Of a DNA stretch of 64,000 nucleotides, positions 1-54,000 are shown in pieces. This stretch comes from Leucoraja ocellata (lineage: Eukaryota), in NCBI GenBank assembly GCA_036785375.1, contig JAWMAR010001184.1, forward strand, positions 248,001-312,000, read 5' to 3'. Position 1 is the first letter of the stretch. Each line of letters begins with the position of its first letter. The position numbers are program-made.

Positions 1-3000
1 ATGGGAGGGAGAGATAGATCAGCCATGATTAAATGGCAGAGTCGACTTGTGGGGCCTAATGGCCTACTTCTGCTCCTATCACTTATGACCTTTTAACCTT
101 ATGCACAGAGTTCGGTTTCTGCTGAGTCATATGGAGTTGACACTGGAATCCTGTGATTCCACATGACCATTCAGAACCGACAGCAGGGCAGAGGTGACAA
201 AGGACTGAAACACAATTGATTAACTTTAATATTTTTAATTCCTTCCAAACATTACTTCATTCACTAGAGGGCACCTTGGTCGGCATGGATGAATTGGGTA
301 GAAAGGTCTGTTTACTTGATTATAACTATGATAATGACTTTAATTTCAACAATATTTTCAATTGTGTCTCCATCAAAAAATAATTTAATCTCCATTTTCA
401 TTGATAGCTGAACATTCATCAGCCACAAATTTCAAGACAAGAAGGGATTCAATATCAGAAAGCAACCAAATGCCAGAAGCATCATCAATATCAAATCCTT
501 CAAAAGAAGGAAACTCAGAATCATCTCTAACAGCAGAATCACCCACAAGAGGCAGCTCCCCTCCAGAAACAACACCAAGAAACCAGCAATCATCACAAAA
601 CATCACAAGCACAAAACTTAATTCTTCAGAAAATGTGTCCGTTTCAGAACCACATTTCACGACAGAATTATCAGCAACCACACGCTCCTCATCGGAATCA
701 TATTCCACATCAGTGAAAGCTTCCTCAACAACAGAACCTTCATCAGAATCACATCCTACAATAGCAGCATCCACGATGGCCACATCCTCTCTGGAAACAA
801 CTCCAAAAACCCAGCAATCTTCAAGAACTGAACTATCATCACAATCCAATCCAAGCACAAACAATGTTTCATCAGTCACTGAGTCCTCTTCAGAAACACA
901 TTTAACAACATCAAGTTTATCACAGGCAACTGAGTCCTCAACAGAAACATACTCCAGTTCGACAACGGTTTCATCAAAAACTGAATCACCCTCAGAAAGC
1001 CATCAGACCACAGAAGTGCCTTCAAGCTCCTTGTCCTCATCAAAAACACACCCAACAACATTACAGGAATCATCATCAACAGAGCTTCCAACAACAGCAT
1101 ATCCAACATTGACATCTGCTTCATCTGTTAGTGTGTCCCCATCTGAAACCCACCTAACAACAACACCACTATCATCGCCAACTCAGTCCTCAGCAGAGAC
1201 CTATCCAACAACACAAACATCCACAAACAAACCTTCATCAGAAACGCATCCAACAACAGTGGAGTCGTCAAGCACACAGCATTCAACGCAAGCACATCAA
1301 AGCTCAACAGAAGTTTCATCAGTCACTGTGTCGAGAGTTGAATCCCACTCCACAACCTCACCATTTTCATTGGTTCCTGAATCCCCGTCAGAAACACGTT
1401 CAACATCTGTACAAGCATCAGTGACAACTGAAACTTCATCGGAATCCCATCCAACTACAGAGGCATCTCGAATCACAATGTCCTCTTCGGAAAGACAGCC
1501 AACAGCATATGAATCATCAAGTACAGAGCAGTCAACACAAACTCATGGAACAACATCAGAAATTCCCTCAGAAAGTGCGTCCTCATCAAAAACCCTCGCA
1601 ACAGCAACAACGTCACCTTTGGTCACTGGGAGCTCAGTGGTAACTTATTCTCAATCATCGCAAATCACATCCTCCAACAAATCTGCAACAGTATCACATC
1701 CAACTACAGAAGAATCATCGATCACTGTCTCTTCACCTGAAACCCGTCAGACAAATACACAGGAACCTTTTACATCGGCATATCCAAAGAAAACACAAGC
1801 TTCAACAGAAACTATTTTGACAACAGAAACACATTTAACAACACCAATCTCAAAGGAAACGGAGCCTCCGTCAGTAACCAACCCACGCACAACAGAAGGC
1901 TCATCCACAACAGAATTTTCCTCACCGAATGGTAGACAGGCATCAGCAACCACATTGTCCACAGCTGAAACACGGTCAGAAACGCAGGAATCAATAAGAA
2001 CGGAGCATTCAACACAAACCAATGCAAACACGACACAGAATTCTTCAGAAAGTGTGTCTGTTTCAGAACCACATTTCACAACGCAATTTTCAGTCACAAC
2101 ACATTCCTCATCGGAATCATATTCCACATCAGTGAAAGCTTCCTCAACAACAGAACCTTCATCAGAATCACACCCTACAATAGCAGCATCCACGATGGCC
2201 ACATCCTCTCTGGAAACAACTCCAAAAACCCAGCAATCTTCAAGAACTGAACTATCATCACAATCCAATCCAAGCACAACCAATGTTTCATCAGTCACTG
2301 AGTCCTCTTCAGAAACACATTTAACAACATCAAGTTTATCACAGGCAACTGAGTCCTCAACAGAAACATACTCTAGTTCGACGCCGGTTTCATCAAAAAC
2401 TGAATCACCCTCAGAGAGCCATCAGACCACAGAAGTGCCTTCAAGCTCCTTGTCCTCATCAAAAACACATCCAACAACATTACAGGAATCATCATCAACA
2501 GAGCTTCCAACAACAGCATATCCAACATTGACATCTGCTTCATCTGTTAGTGTGTCCCCATCTGAAACCCACCTAACAACAACACCACTATCATCGCCAA
2601 CTCAGTCCTCAGCAGAGACCTATCCAACAACACAAACATCCACAAACAAACCTTCATCAGAAACACATCCAACAACAGTGGAGTCGTCAAGCACACAGCA
2701 TTCAACGCAAGCACATCAAAGCTCAACAGAAGTTTCATCAGTCACTGTGTCGCCAGTTGAATCCCACTCCACAACCTCATCATTTTCATTGGTTACTGAA
2801 TCCCCGTCAGAAACACGTTCAACATCTGCACAAGCATCAGTGACAACTGAAACTTCATCGGAATCCCATCCAACTACAGAGGCATCTCGAATCACAATGT
2901 CCCCTTCAGAAAGACAGCCAACAGCACATGAATCATCAAGTACAGAGCAGTCAACACAAACTCATGGAACAACATCAGAAATTCCCTCAGAAAGTGCGTC

Positions 3001-51000: not shown

Positions 51001-54000
51001 ACCCACAACGTTTACCTTTCATACAAGTATTTTGATAGCATGTGACATATAAAATAATTGTATAGGTTGTCAGTTTAGACTTTTTGCCTAAATGCCCATC
51101 CTCTTTTTTAGAATGTGTCATTATCTTAGCAATGTTTAGCTACAGTTTTTAACAAGGTGCTCAGGTTGATTCAAATGTTTGGTTAGCTGGCATATTAAGT
51201 TAAAAGTCGTAGGTGTCTTCTCAGGTAAAACAAATTTGGATTCCATCCAAGTCTGATCAGAAATTAGGACCTCTGTGCAGTAGATGGAGCTCAATGGGAT
51301 ATATGGAGAAATGTTCTTAACCCAAAGTGTGTGACCTTCTCGAGTGAGCAAGCAGGCAAAGATTACAACGGCATCTGTGTGCATTTAAAATATTTAGGTA
51401 ATTTAGTTGGAGTTTCCACAACCATAAAAATAAAATATATATTTTGCATGCCAACTTCCCTGCCATTTCGCTGCCAGGAATCCAGGACAATCCTCAGTAT
51501 CGACTCAGTGCTGTAAAAGGAGGTGACAACGATGGCAGCAATCATTTATTGACAATACTGGAAGAGGGATCCAATTGGCATTTCATTGTGTGTGGGAAAG
51601 TGAGGCTATCATTCAAAGAGTGGACACACCTATGCTTTATATCAGGAACAACAAACAATTTGCTTGAGGAACTCAGCAGGTCGAGTAGCATCTGTAGATG
51701 TCAAGGAATAGTCAGCGATTTGGGTCAAAACCCTGTATTAGGATTCTCTGGCAAATTGTTTGTTGCTTCAGATTCCATCAAACACTTTATATCGCCAGTG
51801 CTGCTTGCAACAAAAAAAATTGTATTATTATTTCAGTTAGTATAGATGGTATTTTAGGAGGACCAATGTACCCTGGTCATAGCATATCAACACATATTTC
51901 TCTCACATACAAAAACTGCAACTCACTGAACTTGTCTCAAAATTTAGAGATTCTGCAGAAGCCATTATTGTGTCAAATGTTATTCCCCTCCCATCTCACC
52001 CCTCCCCAATCCTCCAGATCTGACTACAGAGTCACTAGCGCCAAATACTGGCAAAACACTGGGGAGGAGAAAAGGAAGATACAACCTGGAAAATAATCCT
52101 TCATTCAATGACGATTTCGGTTCTGGTGTCTGGAGACCAAACTTAGACAAAGTAGATACAGAGGCTGAGGTAAATTGAATGTTGCGTGCAATGTCATCGT
52201 GATCTTATAATCTATTGAGGAAAAATGGTTTATTATTGCCTTTAATAATGTGGCGATTTGTTTTCTCCCTGCCAGATACGAGCCAAGCGTCCCGAAGTGG
52301 TTATGCCGGTTGATCAGTGACAATTGATGCCAATGTTAGATCGTCACAGCCCACAGTAGTTTAGACAACTTTGTTCAACATGTATTAACTAAAGGGCATT
52401 TAAGCTTCCCAAAACAAAGTTAAAACTATATTTTCAAAATACTTTGTTTGTTGCATGAATATTTCTGAGAAATAAGAAAAATTCATACTGCTCAGTAACT
52501 CAGTTTAACAGTTTTTTTTTTTTACAGTTTTGTTGTTCCAGAAAGCTCAGTAATGATTTGATTGATATCAGTGTCCTATTATTTTCATGTTACAAGGTTT
52601 TCTGAGTTCTCAGTAAGACAAATAAGCATTGATTCAATGCGTCTATGAAGCGGCCTCTGCAGCCTGTCCGCGTTTTTATTATTTTTTGTCTATGTTTATA
52701 TGTAGTTTTTATTATTTTTTGTTGTGGTGTGTGTGTGGGGGGGTGGGGGTGGGGTGGGAGGGAGGGGGAAACTTTTAAATCTCTCCCTGCACTGGAGACC
52801 CGACCTTTTCTTGTCGGGTCTCAGTTGTCGTTGGGGCTGCAATGAGGAGCGGCCTCCAACAGAAGAAGCCGGGGACTCTGGTGCCGACTCACCTCACCGT
52901 CGCGGGACTGGCCGAGTCCAGAGCGGATGGAGCGGTGGTGGAGCGCTGCTGCTGCTGCTGCTGCTGCTGCTGATGCGGAGGCTACAACTGCGGGTCTGCG
53001 GACGGCGGCACCGGGAGCCCGCGGGTCCCTGGAGGGAGACCGCTTTTCAGGGCTCCTGCAATGGCGACTTCTCCCGCCCGAGTTGCGGGGTCGAAGAGCT
53101 CCTGGAGCGGGGCCTAACATCACTGCCTCGCGCGGCTTGGAATGGCCGCGGGACTCTGCGAGCGCACGCCGGGGGCTCTAACACCAAGACCCGGTGTGCG
53201 ACCTCGCACCACCCGGCGTGGCTTTAATGGCCGCGGGACGATCGCCATTGCCAGCCGGGGGCTTTGACTTTGACTCTGACATCGGGGGGGGGGGGAGAGT
53301 GCAGTGGAGAGATAAGTTTTTTTTGGCCTTCCATCACAGCAATGTGATGGATGTTTATGTAAAATGTAAATTATGTTGTGTCTGGGGTCTATTTGTTTGT
53401 AATGTATGGCTGCAGAAACGGCATTTCGTTTGGACCTCCAGGGGTCCAAATGACAATTAAATTGACTATTGACTATTGAATCTTCAAAACAAGAGGGAGA
53501 ACGGAACAAGAGTGTTGTTGCATTTGCTCTTCACAATAATAACAAGCCTTGGATGTTGGCTTCATTAATGTTTGAATACAGTAATCTGGTCTATTTTGGG
53601 AATATAGGACAAAAAAAATGACGGAAAATCATTTTACTTCAGTTCTCGAACAAAAAGAATGAATACCTGGGTGGGGCACGAGGGTATATACATGGAACTT
53701 AAGCCAAATCACGGATATAACCTTTAAGAGAGGAAAGATTATATTATAAATTACAATAAGACAGTGGGTTAATTGAAAACCTTGATTTAACATTCACATT
53801 TTTAGTCTGTTTAATTTTTGTAATAAACTTTTCAAATATTTTTTGTCAGAAAGCGTTAAGGAAAGTACATCTCTTGACTATTGTCGACTGTGATGTAGTT
53901 TAACTTTACAATAATTGTCCTGTTTATTTAATACCAAACTATTTTACTGACTCATTTACTTATTCTAAATTGAATATGACTGTTTACAGATAAATAAAGA

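What the first reader, a model, noticed from the sequence alone, without database searches (positions are those of the whole stretch)
408..52320. Giant (>15,000 aa) SEA/EGF transmembrane mucin built on a single 44.2-kb coding exon
Seen: one stop-free, frameshift-free 44,211-bp exon with phase-1 splice sites at both ends. It splices in frame to EGF-SEA-EGF-TM-tail exons, giving 15,064 codons in the window before any upstream exons. Known: this domain order and tail motif define the MUC3/12/17 family, and human MUC17 is about 4,500 aa. The largest well-known human coding exons (MUC16, TTN, AHNAK) are roughly 17-22 kb. Inference: this exon is about twice that size. At an assumed ~0.25 nm per residue for O-glycosylated chains, the ectodomain could extend several micrometres as a tethered, sheddable mucus bristle. 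Such a gene is easily collapsed or fragmented in annotations.
Basis: partly seen in the sequence, partly recalled or inferred. Interest (0 to 1): 0.9.

Follow-up and report, generated by a model that had tools for sequence, protein, structure and literature searches.

The report
Giant membrane mucin gene of a ray
This is an intact gene for a very long cell-surface mucin of a ray or skate relative, built on one 44-kb exon; that size is striking but lies within what is already known for the related human mucins.

Summary
One stop-free frame runs 389-44686. A 44,211-bp exon (408-44618) chains in phase to eight small exons, giving 15,064 codons ending at 52320. All nine exon peptides match a sawfish protein named "mucin-17" in order, at 47-87% identity.

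The exon is 30.6 copies of a 1,425-bp (475-aa) unit. Edge copies have diverged and central copies are nearly identical. It shows 0 stop-creating variants against about 10 expected.

Downstream lie an EGF-like module, a SEA domain with a G|SIII cleavage-type motif, a Cys-rich/EGF module, a membrane span and a conserved tail. SEA passes Pfam's cut-off in 2 of 4 named orthologues.

The size comparison is out of date. Human MUC3B exon 2 is 39,267 bp and human MUC12 alleles reach 23,080 aa. The class I PDZ ending shared by MUC3/12/17 is absent. MUC13 shares the EGF-SEA-EGF order, and a labelled phylogeny could not be made.

Copy number rests on the assembly alone. Verdict: new member of a known kind, moderate-to-low interest. 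I do not take the window for human.

The parts
408..44618 (+). Giant PTS exon (44,211 bp, phase 1 in, phase 1 out). It holds about 190 bp of unique 5' coding sequence, the tandem array, and about 350 bp of unique 3' coding sequence with EGF-like module 1.
   Evidence: Ser 26.8%, Thr 22.6%, Pro 7.0%, Glu 9.5%. No GTAAGT/GTGAGT and no polypyrimidine+AG inside.
602..44265 (+). Tandem array of 31 units: 30 full units plus a 920-bp partial one. Each unit is 1,425 bp (475 aa), except unit 1, which is 1,419 bp.
   Evidence: Mean pairwise identity 98.25%, minimum 95.5%. Neighbouring units differ by 0-43 nt.
44474..44589 (+). EGF-like module 1 (8 Cys) at the 3' end of the giant exon.
   Evidence: Sequence. 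Pfam EGF_2 E 0.14, below the cut-off. The same segment of P0001 and of profile A1 matches tPA/uPA EGF modules at E 0.04-0.09.
45033..45154 (+). Exon 2: start of the SEA domain (strand 1 and helix 1 in the orthologue model).
   Evidence: (matches P0001 residues 120-157).
46168..46232 (+). Exon 3: SEA strand 2.
   Evidence: P0001 residues 158-178, 81% identity.
47504..47706 (+). Exon 4: SEA cleavage-type motif G|SIII (Gly codon 47508-47510, Ser codon 47511-47513) and the rest of the SEA domain.
   Evidence: G-S-I is invariant in 4 of 4 named orthologues and lies in the strand 2-strand 3 turn of the model.
48187..48349 (+). Exon 5: Cys-rich region after SEA (8 Cys).
   Evidence: P0001 residues 248-300, 62% identity.
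49444..49605 (+). Exon 6: end of EGF-like module 2, the transmembrane helix (49511-49588) and an RRKK stop-transfer.
   Evidence: Weak Pfam matches to single-pass TM segments. Helix 322-353 in the orthologue model.
50898..50968 (+). Exon 7: cytoplasmic tail, with a conserved WYSIDEEYFRF block.
   Evidence: 87% identity to P0001; invariant columns W365-F375.
52018..52169 (+). Exon 8: cytoplasmic tail, with a conserved GVWRPNLDKVDTEAE block.
   Evidence: (76% identity).
52276..52320 (+). Exon 9: last 14 codons and the TGA stop (52318-52320). The protein ends ..MPVDQ, which is not a class I PDZ ligand.

Best explanation
The window holds the 3' nine exons of an intact gene for a type I membrane mucin of an elasmobranch. 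It is closest to a sawfish protein, so the source is probably a batoid. The signal-peptide exon or exons lie upstream of the window. Shown: the exon chain, the composition, the repeat anatomy, and the collinear match to orthologues. Inferred: the roughly 14,550-residue Ser/Thr-rich array (about 7,290 Ser+Thr, net charge about -28 per 475-aa unit) is densely O-glycosylated. It would then stand as a polyanionic bottle-brush about 3.6 um long, by the published MUC17 scaling. The SEA domain probably cleaves itself at G|SIII while folding, leaving the giant chain held non-covalently on the EGF-TM-tail chain, so that force can shed it. The conserved 95-aa tail binds unknown partners, but not through a class I PDZ ligand. 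The array arose as a higher-order repeat. About 28 degenerate 16-17-aa sub-repeats form a 475-aa block. That block was amplified about 30 times and is kept uniform in the centre by unequal exchange, while selection keeps the frame open.
For: ORF and splice chain. Collinear matches of 9 of 9 exon peptides to 'mucin-17 [Pristis pectinata]' (P0001), at 47-87% identity. Overall identity is 64% to Pristis against 53-57% to three sharks. SEA: Pfam 33.6 and 33.2 bits (cut-off 26.4) in 2 of 4 named orthologues, 25.8 and 15.4 in the other two. A profile of the four matches the SEA region of ADGRF1 (E 0.0034) and TMPRSS11D (E 0.03). The AlphaFold model of P0001 has a beta-alpha-beta-beta-alpha-beta unit at residues 122-239, with 10-residue block means of pLDDT 53-85 and G181-S182 in the hairpin. 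Foldseek rank 2 is the human MUC16 SEA5 domain (E 5.8e-4, TM 0.58 by target). Atlas structure neighbours are SEA proteins. Selection on the frame: 163 variant alleles (55 synonymous, 108 non-synonymous, 0 stop against about 10 expected) and one in-frame 6-bp indel. Natural-looking array: diverged edges and a homogeneous centre, as described for human mucin arrays (PMC13345508). The longest exact self-repeat is 2,798 bp. No strong internal splice signals. Sub-repeat period of 16-17 aa, z 5.6-6.
Against: No Pfam family reaches its cut-off on any of the 8 window exon peptides taken singly; SEA is not detected at all. Exons 2 and 4 find nothing meaningful in the PDB. The SEA call therefore rests on orthologues, not on the window's own spliced protein, which was not assembled. 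The structure model is poor outside SEA (mean pLDDT 46.7, four-sequence alignment). Its Foldseek list mixes the MUC16 SEA hit with generic ferredoxin-like folds. Central units differ by only 0-10 nt, so the unit count could be wrong. Cleavage, glycosylation, length, shedding and tissue are all inferred.
Confidence: 0.8

Rival explanations
1. The gene is real, but the 30.6-unit array length is an assembly product. The true allele would have clearly fewer or more units.
For: Units 11-24 differ from their neighbours by only 0-10 nt, and units 16 and 17 are identical. Exact repeats of up to 2,798 bp exist. Mucin arrays are known to be misassembled or collapsed in reference genomes: MUC3A 8,805 against 15,870 bp and MUC12 14,935 against 32,428 bp (PMC9578598).
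Against: No exact multi-unit block is duplicated, and every stretch over 2.8 kb is unique. Variants form a coherent gradient shared by neighbouring units, with diverged edges. The frame is intact throughout. Alleles of such arrays vary naturally, so one assembly may simply show one true allele.
Confidence: 0.2
2. It is not a member of the MUC3/12/17 group proper. Instead it is an orthologue of MUC13, or of an ancestral SEA-EGF membrane mucin that predates both groups.
For: MUC13 also has PTS, EGF and SEA domains (PMC1552070). There are 10 Cys after SEA, more than one 6-Cys EGF module needs. The class I PDZ ligand common to MUC3A/B, MUC12 and MUC17 is absent. Automatic names of orthologues disagree: mucin-17, hypothetical, IMPG2. 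An early inventory found no MUC3/12/17 in chicken or fishes.
Against: The nearest Atlas clusters are named mucin-12 (0.98), Mucin-3B (0.96) and mucin-3A (0.92), and no mucin-13 cluster is listed. These names are automatic, and the first cluster may be the protein's own. The PTS lies in a single giant exon, as in the 7q22 genes, whereas chicken and zebrafish Muc13 spread it over many exons. The G-S-I motif fits G|S[V/I]VV, which the review lists for MUC1/3A/3B/12/16/17 and not for MUC13.
Confidence: 0.35
3. The locus is an unexpressed or decaying gene, or much of the array is removed from the mature mRNA.
For: No expression data could be consulted. The giant exon is phase 1-1, so skipping it would keep the frame.
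Against: 0 stops against about 10 expected among unit variants, and no frameshift. All eight downstream exons are conserved with canonical borders. There are no consensus donors or acceptor-like tracts inside the exon.
Confidence: 0.06

Closest known systems
Human MUC3A / MUC3B / MUC12 / MUC17 (7q22 membrane mucin cluster)
   Same: All have a huge PTS domain encoded by one exon, a juxtamembrane SEA domain with a G|S[V/I].. motif, EGF-like modules, one TM helix and a short tail (PMC13643018). Exon sizes are of the same order: MUC3B 39,267 bp, MUC12 32,428 bp, and alleles up to 23,080 aa. Array edges are degenerate and centres homogeneous. Human MUC3A/B perfect repeats are 17 aa, and the sub-repeat here is 16-17 aa.
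   Different: There is no class I PDZ ending. The amplified unit is 475 aa rather than 17 aa (MUC3A/B); MUC17 has 60 repeats in 4,073 aa. The cleavage motif reads GSIII, not GS[V/I]VV. There are 10 Cys after SEA. Synteny and orthology are untested.
MUC13
   Same: It is a membrane mucin with PTS, EGF and SEA domains (PMC1552070).
   Different: Human MUC13 has no VNTR exon (PMC13345508). Chicken and zebrafish Muc13 spread the PTS over many small exons. Here there is one 44-kb exon. MUC13 is not among the mucins that the review lists as sharing the G|S[V/I]VV motif.
MUC16 / MUC1 SEA mucins
   Same: SEA fold: the MUC16 SEA5 domain is Foldseek rank 2 for the orthologue model. The autocleavage-type G|S motif is shared.
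   Different: MUC16 has many SEA domains. No multiple SEA domains are seen here: one SEA region in the orthologue alignment.
Elasmobranch database proteins: 'mucin-17' Pristis pectinata (P0001), hypothetical proteins of Chiloscyllium punctatum (P0002) and Scyliorhinus torazame (P0152), 'IMPG2' Heptranchias perlo (P0003)
   Same: They are orthologous over EGF1-SEA-EGF2-TM-tail, at 53-64% identity to the window's exon peptides. The Scyliorhinus fragment also carries an S/T/E-rich PTS part.
   Different: All are short or partial models (442, 529, 348, 891 aa). None shows the giant array.

Membership tests
MUC3/12/17-type membrane mucins | [quoted passage not shown] | tested here: met
   One 44,211-bp exon, 49% Ser+Thr and 7% Pro. 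No internal splice consensus.
MUC3/12/17-type membrane mucins | Juxtamembrane SEA domain | tested here: inconclusive
   The window exons taken singly give no Pfam SEA hit. The spliced protein was not assembled or searched. Orthologues score 33.6 and 33.2 bits (pass) and 25.8 and 15.4 bits (fail) against a 26.4 cut-off. The profile, the fold and the Atlas all point to SEA.
MUC3/12/17-type membrane mucins | SEA autocleavage motif G|S[V/I]VV | tested here: inconclusive
   The window reads G-S-I-I-I. G-S-I is invariant in 4 of 4 orthologues. Positions 4-5 are I-I rather than V-V. Cleavage itself cannot be tested here.
MUC3/12/17-type membrane mucins | EGF-like modules on both sides of SEA | tested here: inconclusive
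   The Cys patterns are present: 8 Cys before SEA and 10 after. Pfam EGF matches are below cut-off (E 0.14 for the window, 0.025 for P0002). PDB EGF modules match at E 0.04-0.09.
MUC3/12/17-type membrane mucins | Class I PDZ-binding C-terminus | tested here: not met
   The window ends ..PVDQ. Orthologues end DEQ, GEH, DEP and NEQ. None has a hydrophobic last residue.
MUC3/12/17-type membrane mucins | Position in a mucin cluster between ACHE and TRIM56 (mammals) | not testable with these tools
   The 11.7 kb after the stop holds no recognisable gene: 9 of 10 ORFs had no Pfam match and 1 had a weak chance-level match. No annotated vertebrate genome collection was on hand.
MUC3/12/17-type membrane mucins | Grouping with named MUC3/12/17 references in a tree of the SEA-EGF-TM region | not tested
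Only automatic Atlas names (mucin-12, Mucin-3B, mucin-3A) are available as a lead.
MUC13 | Short PTS, or a PTS split over many exons; neighbour of HEG1 | tested here: not met
   The PTS is one giant exon. The HEG1 neighbourhood cannot be tested in this window.

The most novel reading that the evidence does not exclude
The giant single-exon, SEA-tethered glycocalyx mucin of the MUC3/12/17 type, with its 17-residue base repeat, already existed in the common ancestor of cartilaginous and bony vertebrates. It would then not be the late, possibly mammalian invention suggested in 2006. In this batoid it has grown, through a 475-aa higher-order repeat, to about 15,000 residues and a brush of about 3.6 um. 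That would be several times longer than typical microvilli (a figure from recall) and would imply a surface layer of a different scale from the 1-um MUC17 glycocalyx.
Probability: 0.3. Interest if true: 0.5.

Novelty: new member of a known kind. Interest (0 to 1): 0.3.

Why it matters
It shows that database models of this elasmobranch gene (348-891 aa) miss almost all of the protein, so annotation pipelines need to handle such exons. If the orthology holds, it dates giant single-exon membrane mucins to before the split of cartilaginous and bony vertebrates. The array is also a clean natural example of a higher-order coding repeat kept in frame by selection. It does not set a new scale for coding exons: the human MUC3B exon (39 kb) is nearly as long, and the longest human MUC12 alleles (up to 23,080 aa) exceed it.

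Tried and rejected
- **Pfam on single exon peptides** (8 of the 9; exon 9 is too short). Nothing passed a cut-off.
- **PDB sequence search** with exon 4 gave 0 hits. Exon 2 gave 7 chance-level hits. P0001 alone matched only EGF modules.
- **TRF** missed the array because its longest period is 500 bp. K-mer spacing found it.
- **The search for homologous proteins** found only 4 named relatives in all three searches.
Unnamed hits could include human proteins, so P0004-P0151 were not aligned, folded or treed. This left the structure job with a four-sequence alignment and ruled out a labelled phylogeny.
- **Atlas search with the tail alone** gave no usable hit.
- **Pfam on 10 other ORFs** at 48.4-62.2 kb found no gene.
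- **Rfam at gathering level** gave 0 matches.
- **Paper searches** found no study of MUC3/12/17-type mucins in cartilaginous fish among the papers listed. Supplements were closed, so tables of exon sizes and of species sets in PMC9578598, PMC13345508 and PMC11414713 were not seen.
- **Rejected readings.** A human origin is rejected because the nearest proteins are elasmobranch. A chance ORF is rejected. A coding role for the 20-bp repeat at 54.9-55.4 kb is rejected because its period is not a multiple of 3.
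Full report
**1. Observation**

The window has no N. Only one frame of at least 300 codons is open, at 389..44686 on the + strand, 14,765 codons. The other five frames of that stretch carry 289 to 2,350 stops. Base composition is uniform and strongly skewed (A 36.5%, C 30.4%, G 13.1%, T 20.0%) up to about 44 kb and then changes.

The first AG after the upstream stop lies at 406-407 behind a T-rich tract, so the exon starts at 408 in phase 1. 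A perfect donor, G|GTAAGT, lies at 44618|44619, also in phase 1.

Reading the next 8 kb, I placed eight further exons. A script translated each exon by itself and tracked the phases:

| Exon | Coordinates | Content |
|---|---|---|
| 1 | 408-44618 | PTS array and EGF-like module 1 |
| 2 | 45033-45154 | SEA |
| 3 | 46168-46232 | SEA |
| 4 | 47504-47706 | SEA, G\|S motif |
| 5 | 48187-48349 | Cys-rich region |
| 6 | 49444-49605 | EGF-like module 2, membrane span |
| 7 | 50898-50968 | tail |
| 8 | 52018-52169 | tail |
| 9 | 52276-52320 | tail end and stop |

All borders are AG/GT and all phases chain.

**2. Origin**

I do not take this window for human. The exon 4 peptide finds "mucin-17 [Pristis pectinata]" (P0001, 442 aa) at 67% identity.

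Further searches with P0001 find three more proteins:
- a partial hypothetical protein of Chiloscyllium punctatum (P0002);
- a Heptranchias perlo protein automatically named IMPG2 (P0003);
- a partial hypothetical protein of Scyliorhinus torazame (P0152).

The window's exon peptides are 64% identical to the sawfish protein and 53-57% identical to the three shark proteins. The source is therefore an elasmobranch, probably a batoid other than Pristis.

**3. Support for the gene model**

All nine exon peptides match P0001 in order and nearly end to end. The matched P0001 residues are 5-116, 120-157, 158-178, 180-248, 248-300, 302-353, 356-378, 380-428 and 429-442, at 47-87% identity. This is cross-species support for every downstream exon and for the donor at 44618.

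The 5' acceptor at 408 has no such support, because the database models start inside the PTS region. Inside the giant exon there is no GTAAGT or GTGAGT, against 12 in the remaining 19.4 kb. There is also no polypyrimidine tract followed by AG. Nothing in the sequence suggests hidden introns, but only RNA can settle that.

**4. The array**

K-mer spacing gives a period of 1,425 bp. An anchor sequence recurs 31 times, spaced 1,419 bp once and then 1,425 bp 29 times. The array runs 602-44265, with 30 full units and one 920-bp partial unit. TRF missed it because its longest period is 500 bp.

- **Identity.** Mean pairwise identity is 98.25% and the minimum is 95.5%.
- **Gradient.** Neighbouring units differ by 13-43 nt at the 5' end and by 7-27 nt at the 3' end. 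Units 11-24 differ from their neighbours by only 0-10 nt, and units 16 and 17 are identical. Degenerate edges with a homogeneous centre are what the human mucin pangenome preprint describes for about half of the human mucins (passages of PMC13345508).
- **Exact repeats.** The longest exact self-repeat is 2,798 bp, and no multi-unit block is duplicated exactly. This argues against a crude assembly expansion. It does not prove the unit count.
- **Selection on the frame.** Among 163 distinct variant alleles, 55 are synonymous, 108 are non-synonymous and none creates a stop. About 10 stops would be expected from random substitutions on this sequence. The only indel is 6 bp. Selection therefore keeps the frame open, while amino-acid changes are close to neutral.

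**5. The unit**

Its 475 residues are 26.9% Ser, 22.9% Thr, 9.7% Glu and 7.2% Pro. It has four N-x-S/T sequons and a net charge of -28.

It is itself a higher-order repeat:
- Internal DNA similarities of 64-86% occur at offsets of 150, 198, 246, 447 bp and more.
- Residue autocorrelation peaks at 16, 17, 33, 50 and 67 aa, with z of 4.4-6 against shuffles.
- A core S-E-[ST]-[HYR] occurs 14 times per unit, often 17 residues apart.

Human MUC3A and MUC3B perfect repeats are also 17 aa long (passages of PMC9578598). The equal period is a lead, not a test of homology.

**6. The C-terminal domains**

The giant exon ends with an 8-Cys EGF-like module. Pfam EGF_2 scores E 0.14, below the cut-off. The same segment of P0001 and of the four-protein profile matches tPA and uPA EGF modules at E 0.04-0.09.

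Exons 2-4 encode the SEA region.
- **Window exons singly.** They give no Pfam SEA hit and no PDB hit. This is expected for pieces of 40, 21 and 67 residues.
- **Orthologues.** Pfam SEA scores 33.6 and 33.2 bits in P0003 and P0152, which pass the 26.4 cut-off. It scores 25.8 in P0002 and 15.4 in P0001, which fail.
- **Profile.** The profile of the four proteins (A1) matches the SEA part of ADGRF1 (E 0.0034) and of TMPRSS11D (E 0.03).
- **Structure model.** An AlphaFold model of P0001 with that shallow alignment is poor overall (mean pLDDT 46.7). Residues 122-239 nevertheless form a beta-alpha-beta-beta-alpha-beta unit, with 10-residue block means of pLDDT 53-85, most at 66 or above. G181-S182 lies in the turn between strands 2 and 3.
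- **Fold search.** Foldseek ranks the human MUC16 SEA5 domain second (E 5.8e-4, TM 0.58 by target), among generic ferredoxin-like folds.
- **Atlas.** Its own model of P0001 has SEA proteins as structural neighbours: mucin-3A, IMPG2, ST14, enteropeptidase, TMPRSS6 and ADGRF1.

In the window the motif reads G-S-I-I-I at 47508-47522. G-S-I is invariant in the four orthologues. This fits the G|S[V/I]VV autocleavage motif listed for MUC1, MUC3A/B, MUC12, MUC16 and MUC17 (passages of PMC13643018), with Ile in place of the two Val.

Exons 5-6 carry 10 Cys, the last six in EGF spacing. They are followed by a 26-residue hydrophobic span and RRKK. Exons 7-9 encode a tail of about 95 residues with long invariant blocks. 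The tail ends ..PVDQ.

**7. Likely working**

Shown: gene structure, composition, repeat anatomy and conservation.

Inferred from what is established for SEA mucins:
- The roughly 7,290 Ser and Thr are O-glycosylated.
- This forces the chain into an extended brush. With MUC17's 4,073 PTS residues reaching up to 1 um, about 14,550 residues would reach about 3.6 um.
- The SEA domain cleaves at G|S during folding, and the two chains stay together non-covalently.
- Mechanical load can then release the giant chain and spare the membrane.

The tissue is unknown.

**8. Comparison and membership**

The architecture is that of the human 7q22 genes: a single-exon PTS domain, SEA, EGF-like modules, a TM helix and a short tail. 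Three points keep me from filing it as a member.

First, the class I PDZ ending that MUC3A/B, MUC12 and MUC17 all have is absent here and in all four orthologues.

Second, MUC13 also has PTS, EGF and SEA domains (passages of PMC1552070). That 2006 inventory found MUC3/12/17 "missing in chicken as well as in fishes".

Third, I could not make a tree with named references. Because unnamed hits might be human, I did not use them.

In favour of MUC3/12/17:
- The nearest Atlas clusters are automatically named mucin-12 (0.98), Mucin-3B (0.96) and mucin-3A (0.92).
- The PTS domain sits in a single exon. Chicken and zebrafish Muc13 split it over many exons, and human MUC13 has no VNTR exon.
- The G-S-I motif fits the motif listed for that group.

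I put the odds of true MUC3/12/17 affinity a little above even.

**9. Size claim**

In the same family, T2T-CHM13 gives a MUC3B exon 2 of 39,267 bp (13,089 aa) and a MUC12 PTS exon of 32,428 bp (passages of PMC9578598).

In 296 long-read assemblies, predicted MUC12 proteins range from 4,677 to 23,080 aa, a 55,233-bp range. [quoted passage not shown]

A 44.2-kb exon is therefore about 13% longer than the MUC3B exon and shorter than the longest MUC12 alleles. It is not a new scale.

**10. Novelty and score**

This is a new member of a known kind. What remains of interest:
- the gene is absent as such from the database models (348-891 aa);
- it hints that giant single-exon membrane mucins are old in vertebrates;
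- the array is a tidy higher-order coding repeat.

My paper searches listed no study of this family in cartilaginous fish. I saw search listings and passages only, and supplements were closed. Interest 0.3.

**11. Surroundings**

After the stop codon I found no recognisable gene. Nine of 10 ORFs had no Pfam match and one had a chance-level match. Rfam gave no match at gathering level.

Other features seen:
- a CpG-island-like stretch at 52700-53199;
- a 20-bp minisatellite at 54891-55454;
- a dispersed element of about 70 nt in intron 3 and downstream.

Noticed in passing
window 602-44265 (each 475-aa unit): The 475-aa unit is a higher-order repeat of about 28 degenerate 16-17-aa sub-repeats with a core S-E-[ST]-[HYR]. 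Human MUC3A/3B perfect repeats are also 17 aa (PMC9578598). The period is the same, but homology is untested.
   Followed up: partly
window 46951-47022, 54315-54386, 56840-57040, 59795-59866, 59875-59943, 61582-61653: A dispersed element of about 70 nt occurs on both strands, once as three tandem 66-bp copies. Its 15-nt core gives 9 matches against 0.04 expected. It resembles, from recall only, a common elasmobranch SINE-like repeat. It has no Rfam match.
   Followed up: partly
window 54891-55454: A GC-rich minisatellite with 20-bp units (also read as 70 bp) is open in several frames as Pro/Gly-rich ORFs. Its period is not a multiple of 3, so it is probably non-coding. The longest ORF across it has no Pfam match.
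   Followed up: partly
window 52700-53199: A CpG-island-like stretch (GC 0.64, CpG observed/expected 0.77) with a (GCT)9 run lies 0.4 kb after the mucin stop codon. It could be a neighbour's promoter or first exon. ORFs there have no Pfam match.
   Followed up: partly
proteins P0001, P0002, P0003, P0152 (database orthologues): All four named orthologues are short or partial (442, 529, 348, 891 aa) and carry discordant automatic names: mucin-17, hypothetical, IMPG2. The sawfish model starts with a Met inside the PTS region, which suggests a truncated model.
   Followed up: partly
window 52018-52169 (exon 8): The tail has an N-P-S-F motif (N-P-P-F in the sawfish). The three sharks lack it in the aligned segment. 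This is an NPxF-type sorting signal by recall, and it seems confined to batoids.
   Followed up: no
window 3768-13743 and 37968-43668: Twelve units near both ends of the array carry an AGGTAA created by an Ala-to-Val variant (..SQVTE..). The central units lack it. It is a weak donor-like site of unknown use.
   Followed up: no
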